In this document: one piece after another, positions 4,594-59,499 of the stretch | Numbering within the stretch: position 1 is the first letter of the stretch | Layout of the letters: each line of letters starts with the position of its first letter | Origin: Escherichia phage FL38 | Direction: 5' to 3' (one strand) | Length of the DNA stretch: 64,000 nucleotides | Sequence record: PP400784 | Notes under the pieces: model-generated | The model's database searches: none | Seen by the model: only the letters and a program-made list of their open reading frames with translations | What the model was told of the DNA's origin: nothing | Made by a program: the position numbers and the translations under genes

Positions 4594-4622
4594 ATTATAG
4601 GGGATCACTGATCCCCTGTCAA
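4594..4622 (-). promoter_or_regulatory. Early promoter cassette with palindromic spacer
   Basis: TTGACA-GGGGATCAGTGATCCCC-TATAAT on minus strand; spacer is a perfect 17-bp palindrome. Confidence 0.7.
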
Positions 4623-6971: not shown

Positions 6972-7000
6972 ATTATAGGGGATCTCCCGATCCCCGTCAA
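6972..7000 (-). promoter_or_regulatory. Early promoter cassette
   Basis: TTGACG-17 bp-TATAAT with GGGGATC...GATCCCC arms in spacer. Confidence 0.7.
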
Positions 7001-11945: not shown

Positions 11946-11975
11946 ATTATAGGGGAGTTTAACCTCCCTTGTCAA
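11946..11975 (-). promoter_or_regulatory. Early promoter cassette
   Basis: TTGACA-18 bp-TATAAT on minus strand. Confidence 0.65.
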
Positions 11976-21536: not shown

Positions 21537-22693
21537 AGATATTTCCCGAATCGGTTGTAGTCATCGTCTGTTAAATCGGTATTAACCTGAGATACCAGAT
21601 ACATAATCTCTACTTCTTGCGCCGCGTTTTGAACTTCGTCAGAGTTCAACCATTTACGCATCCACGGTAACGGATGACGACGAACACTAAACGGGCTTTT
21701 CAGTCCGGCAGCGCGCATACGGGAATCTGCCAGGTATTCTACATAGGTTTTCAGAATTTCCGGTGACAGGTTAGGAATTGCCCCCATTGCGAATAGGTGG
21801 TCTACCCATTCTTTTTCTTGCTCGACAACATCCAGAAAGATTTTCGTTGCTTCGCCTTCAAGTTCTTCCGCAATCTGTTTCCACTCATCACCATCAACCC
21901 CCGTTTGCCATTGACGAATAATGTATTGTGTTCCTTTTAAGTGAAGTTGTTCATCACGCGCAATAAATTTCATGATCTTCGCGTTACCTTCCAGTAAACC
22001 ACGTTCGGCAAAGCTGAAAGTACATGCAAAGGACACATAAAAACGGATTGCTTCCAGTGCATTTACGCAGTGTGCACACAGATAAATCGAAGCCATCAGA
22101 TCTCGTTTTGTATCTTCAAAAAATCTTCTTGCATCATCTAATGCTGTCTGGTCGTCTCGTTCTTCCCAATAGCGGAGATCTTCTTTTGCATTCTCATACT
22201 TACGAATCCAATAAAGAACATCATCATAATATTTCCCGATAGATTCCGCTCGCTTCATGATAGCAGGGTTATCGATGATCTGGTCGAACTCACTAGCCGG
22301 ATCAATGAAACAGTTACGCATAATGTGTGTATAGCTTCGGCTATGAATCGTTTCGCTGAATGTCCATGTTTGCAACCATGTATCGAGAGTTGGATCAGAT
22401 ACAATTGGACCAAATGCTGCGGACGGTGCGCGACCTTGAATAGAATCAAGTAATGTCTGATACTTCAAGTTTTCAGTAAAGAAACGCTTTTCAACGTCAC
22501 CCATATTAAGATATTGAATGCGGTCGGTTGCAAGTGAAATTTCTTCTGGACGCCAGAAAAATGACAATTGCTTTTCGATCAGTTCTTCAAATACTTGATG
22601 ACGCTGAATATCATAGCGAGCGATACCCAACCCACTACCCAGAAACATTGGTTCGTTCATAATATCAACATGTTCGCGGTTAAATACGCTCAT
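21533..22693 (-). CDS. nrdB: Ribonucleotide reductase small subunit (class Ia, beta)
   Basis: 386 aa, uninterrupted; ferritin-like R2 features (FFWRPEEI ... ) and T4 position next to nrdA. Confidence 0.9.
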   Translation of the reverse strand: MSVFNREHVDIMNEPMFLGSGLGIARYDIQRHQVFEELIEKQLSFFWRPEEISLATDRIQYLNMGDVEKRFFTENLKYQTLLDSIQGRAPSAAFGPIVSDPTLDTWLQTWTFSETIHSRSYTHIMRNCFIDPASEFDQIIDNPAIMKRAESIGKYYDDVLYWIRKYENAKEDLRYWEERDDQTALDDARRFFEDTKRDLMASIYLCAHCVNALEAIRFYVSFACTFSFAERGLLEGNAKIMKFIARDEQLHLKGTQYIIRQWQTGVDGDEWKQIAEELEGEATKIFLDVVEQEKEWVDHLFAMGAIPNLSPEILKTYVEYLADSRMRAAGLKSPFSVRRHPLPWMRKWLNSDEVQNAAQEVEIMYLVSQVNTDLTDDDYNRFGKYL

Positions 22694-22708
22694 TAATTCA
22701 CCTCACTA

Positions 22709-22876
22709 TCACTTTTTAACACAAAAGAACTTAGTATTTCTGTTTATTTCGTTATCCTGTTGCAATTCCTGCACGGCTTCAAAACAGCTTTGATGTGATG
22801 AAAACTCCACGCTGGTAACAGTTCCTTTATTATATGAGCCTACGCTAACGGAAAGCAATAACCATAATGTAGCCAT
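22709..22876 (-). CDS. Small protein (55 aa), tandem paralog 1, hydrophobic N-terminus
   Basis: MATLWLLLSVSVGSYNKGTVTSVEFSSHQSCFEAVQELQQDNEINRNTKFFCVKK; SD AAGGTG; not in ORF track. Confidence 0.55.
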   Translation of the reverse strand: MATLWLLLSVSVGSYNKGTVTSVEFSSHQSCFEAVQELQQDNEINRNTKFFCVKK

Positions 22877-23049
22877 TAGTTCACCTTTTGTTTTTCAACG
22901 CAATATAGATTCATAAAGCGTTTATTGTCTTCGCGGATAATCTCGCGAGCTTTAACGCAATCCTGCTTTGTTGCAAATTCAATGCTTGACATATTTCCGT
23001 AATTATACATTGAATTGCTGATTGCAATCAATAACCATACAGTAGCCAT
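22876..23049 (-). CDS. Small protein (57 aa), tandem paralog 2
   Basis: MATVWLLIAISNSMYNYGNMSSIEFATKQDCVKAREIIREDNKRFMNLYCVEKQKVN; TAATG overlap with paralog 1; SD GAGGTTG. Confidence 0.55.
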   Translation of the reverse strand: MATVWLLIAISNSMYNYGNMSSIEFATKQDCVKAREIIREDNKRFMNLYCVEKQKVN

Positions 23050-23217
23050 TATCCGACAACCTCAAAACATTTATCATCAGGAAGAATCGCCCATTCTACA
23101 CCATATTCATCCTCGACGTAGTAGCAAGTCCCATCATGTCGAGCATCATATTCATCACCAACAACAAAGCTATCAGCTAGTTCAAAAATCTACAGCAACA
23201 CATTTTAATTTGGTCAT
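23049..23217 (-). pseudogene. Small ORF interrupted by a frameshift in an A5/T5 homopolymer (about 56 aa if one T removed)
   Basis: ATG with SD GTGAGGA after promoter gives MTKLKCVAVDF then stop; the +1 frame continues 45 codons and ends in a TAATG overlap with the next gene. Confidence 0.4.
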
Positions 23218-23248
23218 AATAAAATCCTCACTTGTTTTTGATGGTTGT

Positions 23249-23277
23249 ATTATAGCGGGGATTTCTCCCCGCGTCAA
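23249..23277 (-). promoter_or_regulatory. Early promoter cassette
   Basis: TTGACG-17 bp (CGGGGAGAAATCCCCGC)-TATAAT. Confidence 0.65.
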
Positions 23278-23285
23278 CACTTATT

Positions 23286-25529
23286 TTACAGCTTGCAAGA
23301 TGAGCACTCGCTAGCGTCTTCCGTACCATCTGCACCGTCGCGAACGTTCGCATAATACAGGGTTTTCAGACCGTAATATTGAGCAAACAGCATATCATCT
23401 AACACATCAGCAATATCGACTTTACCAGTCTTATAAGTGCTTGGATCGTATGATGTATTGGAACTAATCGCCTGATCCACAAACTTCTGCATGATCGCTG
23501 CCAGTGTCAGATAAGGCTTGTTACCTTTCTTGATCAGTGTCCAAAGCAGGTCAATAACATCAGCATTATTCTCTACGTTCGGAATAACCTGATTAAATTG
23601 CCCTTCTTTCGATCCTTTAACCGATACAATCCCGCGAGGCGGTTCAATACCATTTGTGCTGTTAGACACCTGAGAAGATGACTCACAAGGCATCAGCGCC
23701 GAAAGCGTACTGTTACGAATGCCATATTTTTTCAGGTCTTCGCGCAGTTCTTCCCAATCCATCTCATACACCGGATCAACCAGTTCATCTACTGTCTTTT
23801 TGTACCAGTCGATAGGCAGTTCACCGCGACCATAACGTGTTTCATGCATCAGTTCGCAAGCACCCTTCTCTTTAGCCAGTTGCACACTAGCCTTAATCAG
23901 AGCATATTGCAAGCGTTCAAACGTTTTATGCGTAAACTCGTTAGCATCTTCATATGTGAAGAAATTATCTGCTAGATATGATGCAAAGTTAGTAACACCA
24001 ACACCCAGAGAGCGACGTTTTTTGGCTGTCAGTGCTTGTTCTACAGGATAATCCTGATAATCTAACAGGTTGTCAAGTGCACGCACCATAACCATAGCAA
24101 TGCGTTCTACTTCTTCCATATTTTCGATATCGAAATTACCTAAAACATATGCTGCCAAAGTACATAGGCTAATTTCTGAATCATCACGACCCATCGGTTT
24201 TGTTGGCAGAGCAATTTCACAACACAGGTTAGATTGTTTAATCGGTGCTACATTACGAATAAACGCCCCGTGATTGTTCATGTTGTCTGTGAACGTTGGG
24301 TAGATTCGACCAGTGTTAAAACGTTCAATTGCCACCGCTAAAAACAGGTCTTCGGCTTTAACACGAGTTTTACGAACACTCGGATCTTTTTCCAGTTTTT
24401 CGTAAAGTTGGCGGAAACCTTCCTCGTCTCGGAAGTACAGATCCCACAACAAGCCACCCGCAACATCTGGACTAAACAGAGTAATGTAATCCCGTTTAAG
24501 GAATCGCTCTACCATCAGGTTATTAATCTGTACGCCGTAGTCAAGATGGCGAATGCGGTTATCTTCCACGCCCTTATTGTTCTTTAACACAATCAGACTT
24601 TCAAACTCTAAATGCCACATTGGGTAATAGAGTGTCGCTGCCCCGCCACGAATACCGCCTTGTGAGCATGACTTAACGGCAGTCTGAAAATGTTTCCAGA
24701 ATGGGATAACTCCAGTATGACGAACTTCACCATGCCCGATCTTAGATCCTTCCGCGCGAATCATGCCAGCGTTGATACCGATACCAGCACGCTTGCTAAT
24801 ATACTTGATGATTGCATTTGCGGTTTCATTAATACCCTGCAATGAGTCATCACTTTCAATCACCACACACGAACTAAATTGGCGTGTTGGGGTACGCACA
24901 CCTGCCATAATCGGAGTAGGCAGAGAGATTTGCTTATTCGCAACCGCATTATAAAAATCAATCACATGTTCAAGTCGATTTTCTGTCTCTTCTTGATGCA
25001 AGCACATACCGATCAGCATATACGCAAATTGCGGTGTTTCGATGATTTTCTTAGTGCTGCGATCTTGAACAAGATATTTCTCTTTTAACTGCATCGCACC
25101 AGCATAGGTCATTTTAAAATCAAGTTTATGGTCGATGAATTTCTCCAGATATTCCACTTCTTCACGGGAATACTTTTGCAGAATTTCGCGATCATATTTT
25201 CCGGTTGCAATATTACGCTCAATATGGCTGTAAAAATCAATTGGTTGGAATTGACCGTATACTGATTTGCGAAGCGCGAACATTGCAAGGTTACTTGCTA
25301 CATATTGATAATCGGGTGTTTCTACAGTAATGTTATCTGCTGCGACCTTAATCAATACTTTCTGGATATCGTTGGTAGACATACCTTCTGTCAGAAGTGG
25401 TTCAACCATATCAAACAATTCATATGGATCAACGTTATGACCTTCGGCTGCCGCTTCCAGAATTTTCATTACTTTTTCTTTTTCAAAAGGAACAGTCAGA
25501 CCGGAAGACTTAACAACATTTTTAATCAT
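23286..25529 (-). CDS. nrdA: Ribonucleotide reductase large subunit (class Ia, alpha)
   Basis: 747 aa; C-terminal redox tail ECSSCKL; size and position as in T4. Confidence 0.9.
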   Translation of the reverse strand: MIKNVVKSSGLTVPFEKEKVMKILEAAAEGHNVDPYELFDMVEPLLTEGMSTNDIQKVLIKVAADNITVETPDYQYVASNLAMFALRKSVYGQFQPIDFYSHIERNIATGKYDREILQKYSREEVEYLEKFIDHKLDFKMTYAGAMQLKEKYLVQDRSTKKIIETPQFAYMLIGMCLHQEETENRLEHVIDFYNAVANKQISLPTPIMAGVRTPTRQFSSCVVIESDDSLQGINETANAIIKYISKRAGIGINAGMIRAEGSKIGHGEVRHTGVIPFWKHFQTAVKSCSQGGIRGGAATLYYPMWHLEFESLIVLKNNKGVEDNRIRHLDYGVQINNLMVERFLKRDYITLFSPDVAGGLLWDLYFRDEEGFRQLYEKLEKDPSVRKTRVKAEDLFLAVAIERFNTGRIYPTFTDNMNNHGAFIRNVAPIKQSNLCCEIALPTKPMGRDDSEISLCTLAAYVLGNFDIENMEEVERIAMVMVRALDNLLDYQDYPVEQALTAKKRRSLGVGVTNFASYLADNFFTYEDANEFTHKTFERLQYALIKASVQLAKEKGACELMHETRYGRGELPIDWYKKTVDELVDPVYEMDWEELREDLKKYGIRNSTLSALMPCESSSQVSNSTNGIEPPRGIVSVKGSKEGQFNQVIPNVENNADVIDLLWTLIKKGNKPYLTLAAIMQKFVDQAISSNTSYDPSTYKTGKVDIADVLDDMLFAQYYGLKTLYYANVRDGADGTEDASECSSCKL

Positions 25530-59331: not shown

Positions 59332-59499
59332 TCAAAAACCTCGCTTAGTGAAATGCTCGATCATTTTATTGATACATGCAGCTTCACTATCGCCGGACAC
59401 GTTCCAGCCGTATAGACCCCATCTAAAGCACATGGTAACAGTTCCATTGTGACGGCTTACCGTCACATCATTAAATTCTGGGATACTTCGCATAATCAT
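59332..59499 (-). CDS. Small protein (55 aa), tandem paralog
   Basis: Ends EAACINKMIEHFTKRGF; SD GAGGAA; directly downstream of dda. Confidence 0.45.
   Translation of the reverse strand: MIMRSIPEFNDVTVSRHNGTVTMCFRWGLYGWNVSGDSEAACINKMIEHFTKRGF

What the first reader, a model, noticed from the sequence alone, without database searches (positions are those of the whole stretch)
23049..23217. Promoter-driven small ORF broken by a frameshift in a 5-nt homopolymer
A promoter cassette (23249..23277) and SD lead to an ATG at 23217, but the frame stops after 11 codons at a T5 run (minus-strand GATTTTTGA). The +1 frame continues open for 45 codons and ends in a TAATG overlap with the next gene, the usual coupling signature of real genes here. 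Removing one T restores a 56-aa ORF. This is a sequencing error, a recent pseudogene, or a programmed +1 frameshift at a T-run next to a stop codon.
Basis: seen in the sequence. Interest (0 to 1): 0.4.

Follow-up and report, generated by a model that had tools for sequence, protein, structure and literature searches.

The report
Frameshifted small accessory phage gene
A 55-residue accessory gene of an RB49-like (T4-type) coliphage carries a real, inherited one-base insertion that knocks it out; this is an ordinary null allele, notable only because the same small gene has been broken in at least nine different ways in related phages.

Summary
On the minus strand a consensus promoter with a stem-loop (23277..23249) and an SD lead to ATG 23217. 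The frame stops after 11 codons at GAU UUU UGA (T5 run 23188..23184). The +1 frame stays open for 44 codons and ends in TAATG at 23049.

The ORF is the orthologue of RB49p233 (phrog_16302, 55 aa, function unknown), which lies between nrdA and nrdB of Krischvirus phages. Of 58 public records, 50 have T4 and an intact gene, with pN/pS 0.17.

The T5 allele also occurs in phages FL04 and kaaroe, both Illumina-sequenced. In the window it comes with three linked SNPs of that haplotype. It is therefore a real, recombining allele and not a sequencing error.

It is not a conserved programmed frameshift. It occurs in one haplotype only, has no SD-like stimulator, and has A rather than C after UGA. U_UUU_UGA is intrinsically prone to +1 slippage, so a low level of full-length protein is plausible but unshown.

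At least eight other inactivating alleles exist, two of them nonsense substitutions. The adjacent gene is intact in 52 of 52 records. Loss may be adaptive, but that is speculative.

The parts
23249..23277 (-). PeSL-type early promoter cassette. It consists of -35 TTGACG (23277..23272), a 17-nt spacer containing the stem-loop GCGGGGA/GAAA/TCCCCGC (23272..23255), and -10 TATAAT (23254..23249).
   Evidence: 11 of 12 consensus positions; 13 such promoters on the minus strand against 0.2 expected. Fold energy. Element class described by Arbiol et al. 2010, PMC2839356.
23225..23229 (-). Shine-Dalgarno GAGGA, 7 nt upstream of the ATG.
   Evidence: Conserved in all relatives aligned.
23182..23217 (-). 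Frame-0 part of the disrupted gene: ATG, then 10 further codons (MTKLKCVAVDF), then TGA.
23181..23188 (-). Lesion and potential +1 shift site U_UUU_UGA_A. The T5 run is at 23188..23184, where the intact orthologues have T4.
23049..23183 (-). +1-frame remainder of the gene: 44 codons (ELADSF...CFEVVG) plus TAA 23051..23049. It contains no in-frame ATG, GTG or TTG.
   Evidence: It is 100% identical to residues 12-55 of the RB49 protein.
22876..23049 (-). Downstream translationally coupled gene (57 aa, RB49p232 orthologue, phrog_5579). Its ATG overlaps the TAA of the broken gene.
   Evidence: intact in 52 of 52 records.
22709..22876 (-). Tandem paralogue of the previous gene (55 aa, RB49p231 orthologue, phrog_5579), also joined by a one-base stop/start overlap.

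Best explanation
The feature is the Krischvirus accessory gene orthologous to RB49p233. It encodes a 55-aa acidic protein predicted to form a small SH3-like beta-barrel, and its function is unknown. It is the first gene of a three-gene early cassette driven by a PeSL promoter between nrdA and nrdB. In this genome one extra T in a T4 run (codons 10-12) creates GAU UUU UGA, so translation ends after 11 residues. This is a genuine, heritable frameshift (null or strongly hypomorphic) allele. It circulates among natural RB49-like phages and has moved between genomic backgrounds by short-patch recombination. It is not an assembly error and not an evolved recoding signal. Shown: the lesion, the orthology, the allele sharing, the recombination patch, purifying selection on intact alleles, and recurrent independent inactivation of this gene. 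Inferred: a small fraction of ribosomes (probably in the percent range or less) slip +1 on U_UUU_U while the UGA awaits RF2 and so make full-length protein; and early termination uncouples translation of the downstream 57-aa gene.
For: (1) The repaired protein matches phrog_16302 end to end (E 9e-42). It is 100% identical to the RB49 protein and sits in the same place as RB49p233. (2) Census of 58 Krischvirus records by tblastn: 50 are intact. Those read at the DNA level have T4. (3) Intact alleles give pN/pS 0.17. The AF2 model has pLDDT 89.9. The gene is therefore a real coding gene. (4) The T5 allele is shared with FL04 (MiSeq) and kaaroe (NextSeq). Both genomes differ from the window by 2-3% over 24 kb. 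(5) The window is identical to FL04 over 23389..22919. It differs from its closest local relative, OZ035808, at only four positions in 1490 nt. All four lie inside this ORF and match the FL04 haplotype. An indel that travels with linked SNPs is not a base-calling error. (6) The gene is dispensable. At least eight further distinct inactivating alleles exist: GAG>TAG at codon 12, -A at codon 4/5, -2 nt at codon 31, +T at codon 39/40, -1 at codon 30, +AT at codon 24, T4>T3 at codon 50/51, and TGC>TGA at codon 31. (7) There is no recoding apparatus. No SD-like element lies upstream of the site, the local RNA fold is not unusual (z = -1.46), and there is no Rfam match.
Against: Raw reads of the window genome could not be inspected. 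The downstream frame shows no decay at all. That is expected for a recent lesion, but it is also what selection on a frameshift product would give. U_UUU_UGA belongs to a recognised +1 shift-prone class. UUU_Ynn is called especially prone in bacteria, and UUU_U serves as the RF2 shift site in a minority of species. UUU UGA is listed among +1 slippery patterns in FSDB. The allele has persisted long enough to recombine into at least three backgrounds, so it is not strongly deleterious.
Confidence: 0.8

Rival explanations
1. Compensatory or programmed +1 ribosomal frameshift. tRNA-Phe slips from UUU to the overlapping UUU while UGA is slowly decoded, and the full-length 55-aa protein is produced at a biologically meaningful, possibly down-tuned, level. 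This would be a 'savior indel' with low-level correction.
For: The site geometry is ideal for perfect +1 re-pairing next to a stop codon. UUU_Ynn is described as especially +1-prone in bacteria, and UUU_U is used by some RF2 genes. UUU UGA is in the FSDB list of +1 patterns. The downstream frame is undamaged. The allele persists in three genomes.
Against: It is found in 3 of 53 genomes, all on one locally identical haplotype, so it represents one event rather than conservation. There is no SD-like stimulator 3 nt upstream, and the base after UGA is A, whereas C is the important conserved base. CUU_U is reported to be far more efficient than UUU_U. The same gene is also broken by nonsense codons and by indels at non-slippery positions, so complete loss is tolerated and no rescue is needed.
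Confidence: 0.12
2. Sequencing or assembly error: the window genome really has T4.
For: Homopolymer length is the commonest indel error, and the sequencing platform for the window is unknown.
Against: The identical allele is present in two Illumina-sequenced isolates from different studies. In the window the extra T is flanked by three SNPs that together reproduce the FL04/kaaroe haplotype within an otherwise OZ035808-like background.
Confidence: 0.04
3. Termination-reinitiation. Ribosomes that stop at UGA restart at the overlapping non-canonical AUU (23189..23187) and make a 46-residue N-terminally truncated protein.
For: AUU lies in the +1 frame, 5 nt upstream of the stop, directly after a TAG.
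Against: There is no canonical start and no SD in range. From general knowledge, AUU is a very weak initiator. The product would lack the first beta-strand of the predicted barrel.
Confidence: 0.02

Closest known systems
RB49p233 (NP_891804) orthologous group, phrog_16302
   Same: Same position between nrdA and the RB49p232/p231 pair. The PeSL promoter is identical, and so are the SD and start in most of the relatives aligned. The repaired protein is 100% identical.
   Different: The window allele has T5 instead of T4 and encodes only 11 residues in frame 0.
prfB (RF2) autoregulatory +1 frameshift site CUU_UGA_C
   Same: A P-site codon that can re-pair in the +1 frame is followed directly by an in-frame UGA. 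The full-length product requires a +1 shift.
   Different: The shift codon is UUU rather than CUU. The 3' base is A rather than C. There is no SD-like stimulator. The frameshift is not conserved among orthologues and there is no regulatory logic linking the product to RF2.
PeSL (promoter-early stem-loop) cassettes of RB49/phi1 (Arbiol et al. 2010; Comeau et al. 2014)
   Same: A strong sigma-70 consensus promoter carries a GGGG...CCCC stem-loop and flanks small ORFan genes. Such cassettes are known substrates for recombination and modular shuffling.
   Different: The finding concerns a point lesion inside the cassette's first gene, not cassette shuffling. The recombination patch seen here has not been mapped to PeSL ends.
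Gp54 of phage Bas11 (PDB 9AXB, Pfam PF25180), a trigger of the CapRelSJ46 defence

Membership tests
RB49p233 / phrog_16302 orthologous group | Full-length sequence match to the family profile | tested here: met
   The repaired 55-aa sequence gives E 9e-42 over positions 1-55 of 55 and 100% identity to RB49.
RB49p233 / phrog_16302 orthologous group | Conserved position downstream of nrdA, behind the same promoter, and upstream of the p232/p231 pair | tested here: met
RB49p233 / phrog_16302 orthologous group | Uninterrupted reading frame | tested here: not met
   The T5 run gives a TGA after codon 11. The window carries a disrupted allele of a family member.
RF2-type programmed +1 frameshift | P-site codon able to re-pair in the +1 frame, followed by an in-frame stop codon | tested here: met
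   U_UUU_UGA at 23188..23182.
RF2-type programmed +1 frameshift | Weak stop context with C after UGA | tested here: not met
   The base after UGA is A (23181). The importance of C is stated in PMC5009743.
RF2-type programmed +1 frameshift | Shine-Dalgarno-like stimulator about 3 nt 5' of the shift codon | tested here: not met
   The upstream sequence GUUGCUGUAGAU contains no GGAGG/AGGGG-like element.
RF2-type programmed +1 frameshift | Frameshift requirement conserved among orthologues | tested here: not met
   50 of 58 records are intact in one frame. T5 occurs on one haplotype only.
RF2-type programmed +1 frameshift | Trans-frame protein product detected | not testable with these tools
   Needs mass spectrometry or a reporter assay.
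PeSL cassette | Near-consensus sigma-70 promoter combined with a GGGG...CCCC stem-loop, located in an intergenic region next to an ORFan | tested here: met
   Definition taken from PMC2839356.
PeSL cassette | Promoter and terminator activity | not testable with these tools
   Shown experimentally for other PeSLs in PMC2839356, not for this one.
Gp54 trigger family (PF25180) | Match to the family HMM | tested here: not met
   p233 has no PF25180 hit at E <= 1. Bas11 Gp54 scores 116 bits.
Gp54 trigger family (PF25180) | Similar fold | tested here: inconclusive
DUF7244 (PF23896) | Score above the gathering threshold | tested here: not met
   15.2 bits against a cut-off of 27. Foldseek does list DUF7244 proteins among structural neighbours.

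The most novel reading that the evidence does not exclude
Loss of this gene is adaptive rather than neutral. p233 would then be a conditionally costly small protein, for example one sensed by a host defence system or harmful in certain hosts such as E. coli K-12 MG1655. The T5 allele would be one of many escape lesions, possibly retaining a trickle of product through +1 slippage at U_UUU_UGA. Supporting points: at least nine distinct inactivating alleles occur in a 168-nt gene whose intact copies are under purifying selection (pN/pS 0.17). No disrupted copy of the adjacent gene was found (8/58 against 0/52, Fisher p = 0.0065). Five of seven MG1655-isolated genomes are disrupted against 3 of 45 others (p = 4e-4), although this comparison is confounded by shared Danish origin and shared haplotype. 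The predicted fold resembles the defence trigger Gp54 of Bas11.
Probability: 0.3. Interest if true: 0.55.

Novelty: new member of a known kind. Interest (0 to 1): 0.22.

Why it matters
As it stands the finding mainly matters for annotation. The locus should be marked as a disrupted orthologue of RB49p233. It should not be left as an unannotated gap, as in the FL04 and kaaroe records, and it should not be called a recoding event. The wider pattern may deserve an experiment. A tiny early gene that is conserved in most Krischvirus genomes yet repeatedly knocked out by independent mutations is the population signature expected of a phage protein with a host-dependent cost, such as a defence trigger. 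If that were confirmed, it would give a function to an ORFan family and would identify a natural case of escape alleles spreading by short-patch recombination.

Tried and rejected
- Exact-pattern scans of IMG/VR found no T5 allele and one T4 allele, which was uninformative.
- Protein-guided scans of IMG/VR and of metagenome contigs gave only five loci, all intact.
- Rfam gave no match in 22600..23700 at E <= 1.
- The RNA fold around the shift site is not better than shuffles (z = -1.46), so there is no evidence for a structural stimulator.
- A PDB sequence search gave no hit. Pfam gave only sub-threshold DUF7244 and DUF6150 matches.
- An exhaustive HMM search of 1.84 billion representatives found only Krischvirus copies, one 58-aa distant relative (P0012) and two weak hits in long, probably repetitive proteins. 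The family is narrow and the search yields no function.
- A literature search for the locus names found nothing.
- One accession guess for phage Bas11 was wrong. The correct accession was then taken from the paper.
- Transcriptional slippage was considered and set aside, because a 5-nt run is too short for efficient RNA polymerase slippage (general knowledge).
- A -1 shift was rejected, because the -1 frame hits TAG two codons later.

Full report
**What is in the sequence**

The window is from an RB49-like T4-type coliphage (genus Krischvirus). A 1.1-kb query around the finding matches 58 phage records, all Krischvirus, at 90-99.6% identity. No record matches a 24-kb stretch better than about 98%, so this genome is not itself in the collection.

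On the minus strand nrdA ends at 23286. The following elements come next:
- a near-consensus sigma-70 promoter: TTGACG 23277..23272, a 17-nt spacer, TATAAT 23254..23249;
- the spacer forms the hairpin GCGGGGA-GAAA-TCCCCGC; the 34-nt promoter segment that contains it folds at -17.5 kcal/mol;
- SD GAGGA at 23229..23225;
- ATG at 23217.

Frame 0 reads MTKLKCVAVDF and stops at TGA 23184..23182, immediately after the T5 run 23188..23184. The +1 frame, starting at GAA 23183, reads ELADSFVVGDEYDARHDGTCYYVEDEYGVEWAILPDDKCFEVVG. It ends at TAA 23051..23049, which shares one base with the ATG of the next ORF.

That frame has no ATG, GTG or TTG, so it cannot be an independent gene. The -1 frame closes after two codons.

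Forty-four open codons have P about 0.05 from composition. Open stretches without a start codon make up 2% of positions on this strand. The comparative data below settle the matter.

**What the element is**

The repaired protein matches phrog_16302 (unknown function) over its whole length (E 9e-42). It is 100% identical to RB49p233 (NP_891804), which occupies the same slot in RB49. Two tandem paralogues follow (57 and 55 aa, both phrog_5579; RB49p232 and p231), and then nrdB.

The promoter-plus-hairpin is a PeSL ('promoter-early stem-loop'). This is the composite promoter/terminator cassette described for RB49 and phi1, which flanks ORFans and mediates modular shuffling (PMC2839356, PMC4122927). 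The window holds 13 TTGAC-N17-19-TATAAT matches, all on the minus strand, against 0.2 expected. Four of them carry G-run/C-run hairpins.

The family is narrow. A word-indexed search of 5.8 billion proteins and an exhaustive HMM search of 1.84 billion representatives found only Krischvirus copies, one 58-aa distant relative and two weak hits in long proteins.

An AlphaFold model built on an orthologue is confident (pLDDT 89.9) and shows a five-stranded small beta-barrel. Structural neighbours are SH3-like domains and many small uncharacterised phage proteins, including DUF7244 members. The Pfam DUF7244 score is below threshold.

**Is it a real gene?**

Yes. Eleven distinct intact haplotypes give pN/pS = 0.17, which indicates purifying selection. 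One relative (GEC-3S) carries an in-frame 7-residue duplication.

**Census of the lesion**

A tblastn search with the repaired protein over all 58 records (52 distinct genomes after removing GenBank/RefSeq duplicates) finds 50 intact records and 8 disrupted ones. Alignment of the fetched loci shows what each lesion is:

| Genomes | Lesion |
|---|---|
| Window, FL04, kaaroe | T4>T5 insertion |
| ELT3, G37-3 | GAG>TAG at codon 12, the same codon where the window's TGA lies; this also lengthens the T run to five |
| pEJ01 | loss of one A at codon 4/5 |
| FL20, FL37 | loss of 2 nt at codon 31 |
| AV108 | extra T at codon 39/40 |

Short protein fragments returned by the homology search led to four more alleles in metagenome and SRA assemblies:
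- -1 nt at codon 30;
- +AT at codon 24;
- T4>T3 at codon 50/51;
- TGC>TGA at codon 31, the last seen in three separate assemblies.

In all of these the downstream 57-aa gene is intact, and so is the 55-aa gene wherever the fetched stretch reaches it. That makes at least nine distinct inactivating alleles, two of which are nonsense substitutions.

As a control, the adjacent 57-aa gene is full-length and at least 98% identical in all 52 records that carry it. The comparison of 8/58 against 0/52 gives Fisher p = 0.0065.

**Sequencing error?**

This is unlikely. kaaroe was assembled from Illumina NextSeq reads (PMC7552041). The FL phages were assembled from MiSeq 2x250 reads (PMC12032242), and AV108 from MiSeq reads (PMC10844046).

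More directly, over 1490 nt the window differs from OZ035808 at only four positions. All four lie inside this ORF: the extra T at 23188, plus 23181, 23103 and 23055. All four match the FL04/kaaroe haplotype. The window is identical to FL04 from 23389 to 22919 but diverges on both sides.

The T5 allele therefore sits on a short recombination patch shared by three otherwise different genomes. An indel that travels with linked SNPs is inherited, not miscalled.

**Programmed frameshift?**

The geometry is right for +1 slippage. tRNA-Phe on UUU can re-pair perfectly on the overlapping UUU while UGA waits for RF2. The review by Atkins et al. states three relevant points (PMC5009743):
- UUU_U replaces CUU_U in the RF2 genes of a minority of species;
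- CUU_U is far more efficient, and the base after UGA, conserved as C, matters.

UUU UGA also appears in the FSDB list of +1 patterns (PMC3500957).

Against a selected signal:
- The base after UGA is A.
- No SD-like element precedes the site.
- The local RNA fold is unremarkable, and Rfam finds nothing.
- The frameshift requirement is confined to one haplotype, whereas most orthologues read straight through.
- Other genomes carry lesions that no slippage could rescue, so full loss is tolerated.

I infer some leaky +1 product, probably a small percentage or less. I do not infer an evolved recoding device.

**Most likely mechanism**

Slippage during replication at the T4 run added one T. The neighbouring G>T change in ELT3 and G37-3, which also extends the run, fits transient-misalignment mutagenesis at the same run; this is an inference from general knowledge. 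The resulting allele ends translation at codon 12.

The lesion is recent or neutral enough that the rest of the frame is undamaged. It has spread by the short-patch homologous recombination typical of T4-type phages. Early termination probably also weakens translational coupling to the downstream 57-aa gene, which still has its own GAGG 10 nt upstream of the ATG (inference).

**A lead beyond the question asked**

The combination of purifying selection on intact copies and repeated knock-outs suggests a gene with a host-dependent cost. Among database genomes, 5 of the 7 isolated on E. coli K-12 MG1655 are disrupted against 3 of 45 others (Fisher p = 4e-4). This comparison is confounded, because four of the five are Danish isolates sharing one local haplotype. 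Even so, three different lesions occur in that group.

**Verdict**

'Sequencing error' is very unlikely. 'Programmed frameshift' is unsupported, although low-level slippage is plausible. The finding itself is ordinary. The recurrent inactivation of this ORFan is the only part that may repay an experiment.

Noticed in passing
window 23182..23190, compared with L008 (ELT3) and L009 (G37-3): Two different mutations place a stop at the same codon 12, and both lengthen the T4 run to T5. The window, FL04 and kaaroe have a +T insertion that gives TGA. ELT3 and G37-3 have a G>T substitution that gives TAG. This suggests the T run is a misalignment-driven mutational hotspot.
   Followed up: partly
phage records (hosts as written in GenBank): Disrupted alleles of this gene are enriched among phages isolated on E. 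coli K-12 MG1655: 5 of 7 against 3 of 45 (Fisher p = 4e-4). The comparison is confounded by shared Danish origin and shared local haplotype.
   Followed up: partly
window 22919..23389: There is a short mosaic patch. The window equals OZ035808 across 1490 nt except for four positions, all inside the small ORF, where it instead equals FL04 and kaaroe. Identity to FL04 ends at 23390 and at 22918. This indicates short-patch recombination carrying the broken allele.
   Followed up: yes
window 22709..23049: Two tandem paralogous small genes (57 and 55 aa, both phrog_5579) have hydrophobic N-termini and two conserved Cys residues. They are joined by one-base stop/start overlaps. The 57-aa copy is intact in 52 of 52 records. 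Copy number varies: FL20 and G37-3 have one copy, and AV108 has none and carries a homing endonuclease gene there instead. phiS keeps both copies and has a homing endonuclease gene downstream of them.
   Followed up: partly
window 4594..4622, 6972..7000, 11946..11975, 23249..23277 (minus strand), plus 9 more promoter matches: Thirteen TTGAC-N17-19-TATAAT promoters are found, all on the minus strand, against 0.2 expected. Four have G-run/C-run hairpins in the spacer (PeSL type).
   Followed up: partly
L007 (phiS), about 8 nt upstream of the ATG: A second T-run length polymorphism (T4>T5) lies in the SD-ATG spacer of the same gene in phage phiS. The ORF is intact there.
   Followed up: no
P0003 (GEC-3S orthologue): An in-frame 7-residue tandem duplication (DVYDARR/DEYDARH) gives a 62-aa variant of the protein.
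   Followed up: no
window minus strand, starting at 59338, 56735, 46051, 45902, 22122, 14652, 7402, 3086: Eight other TTTTTGA heptamers occur on the minus strand. It was not checked whether any lies in frame as UUU UGA at the end of a gene, or interrupts one.
   Followed up: no
P0012 (58 aa): This is the only distant homologue of the family outside the close Krischvirus set (E 3.4e-8). It keeps the LKCV...DSF...G..Y...YY..D..G..W.I..DD..FE.V pattern. Its genomic context was not examined.
   Followed up: no
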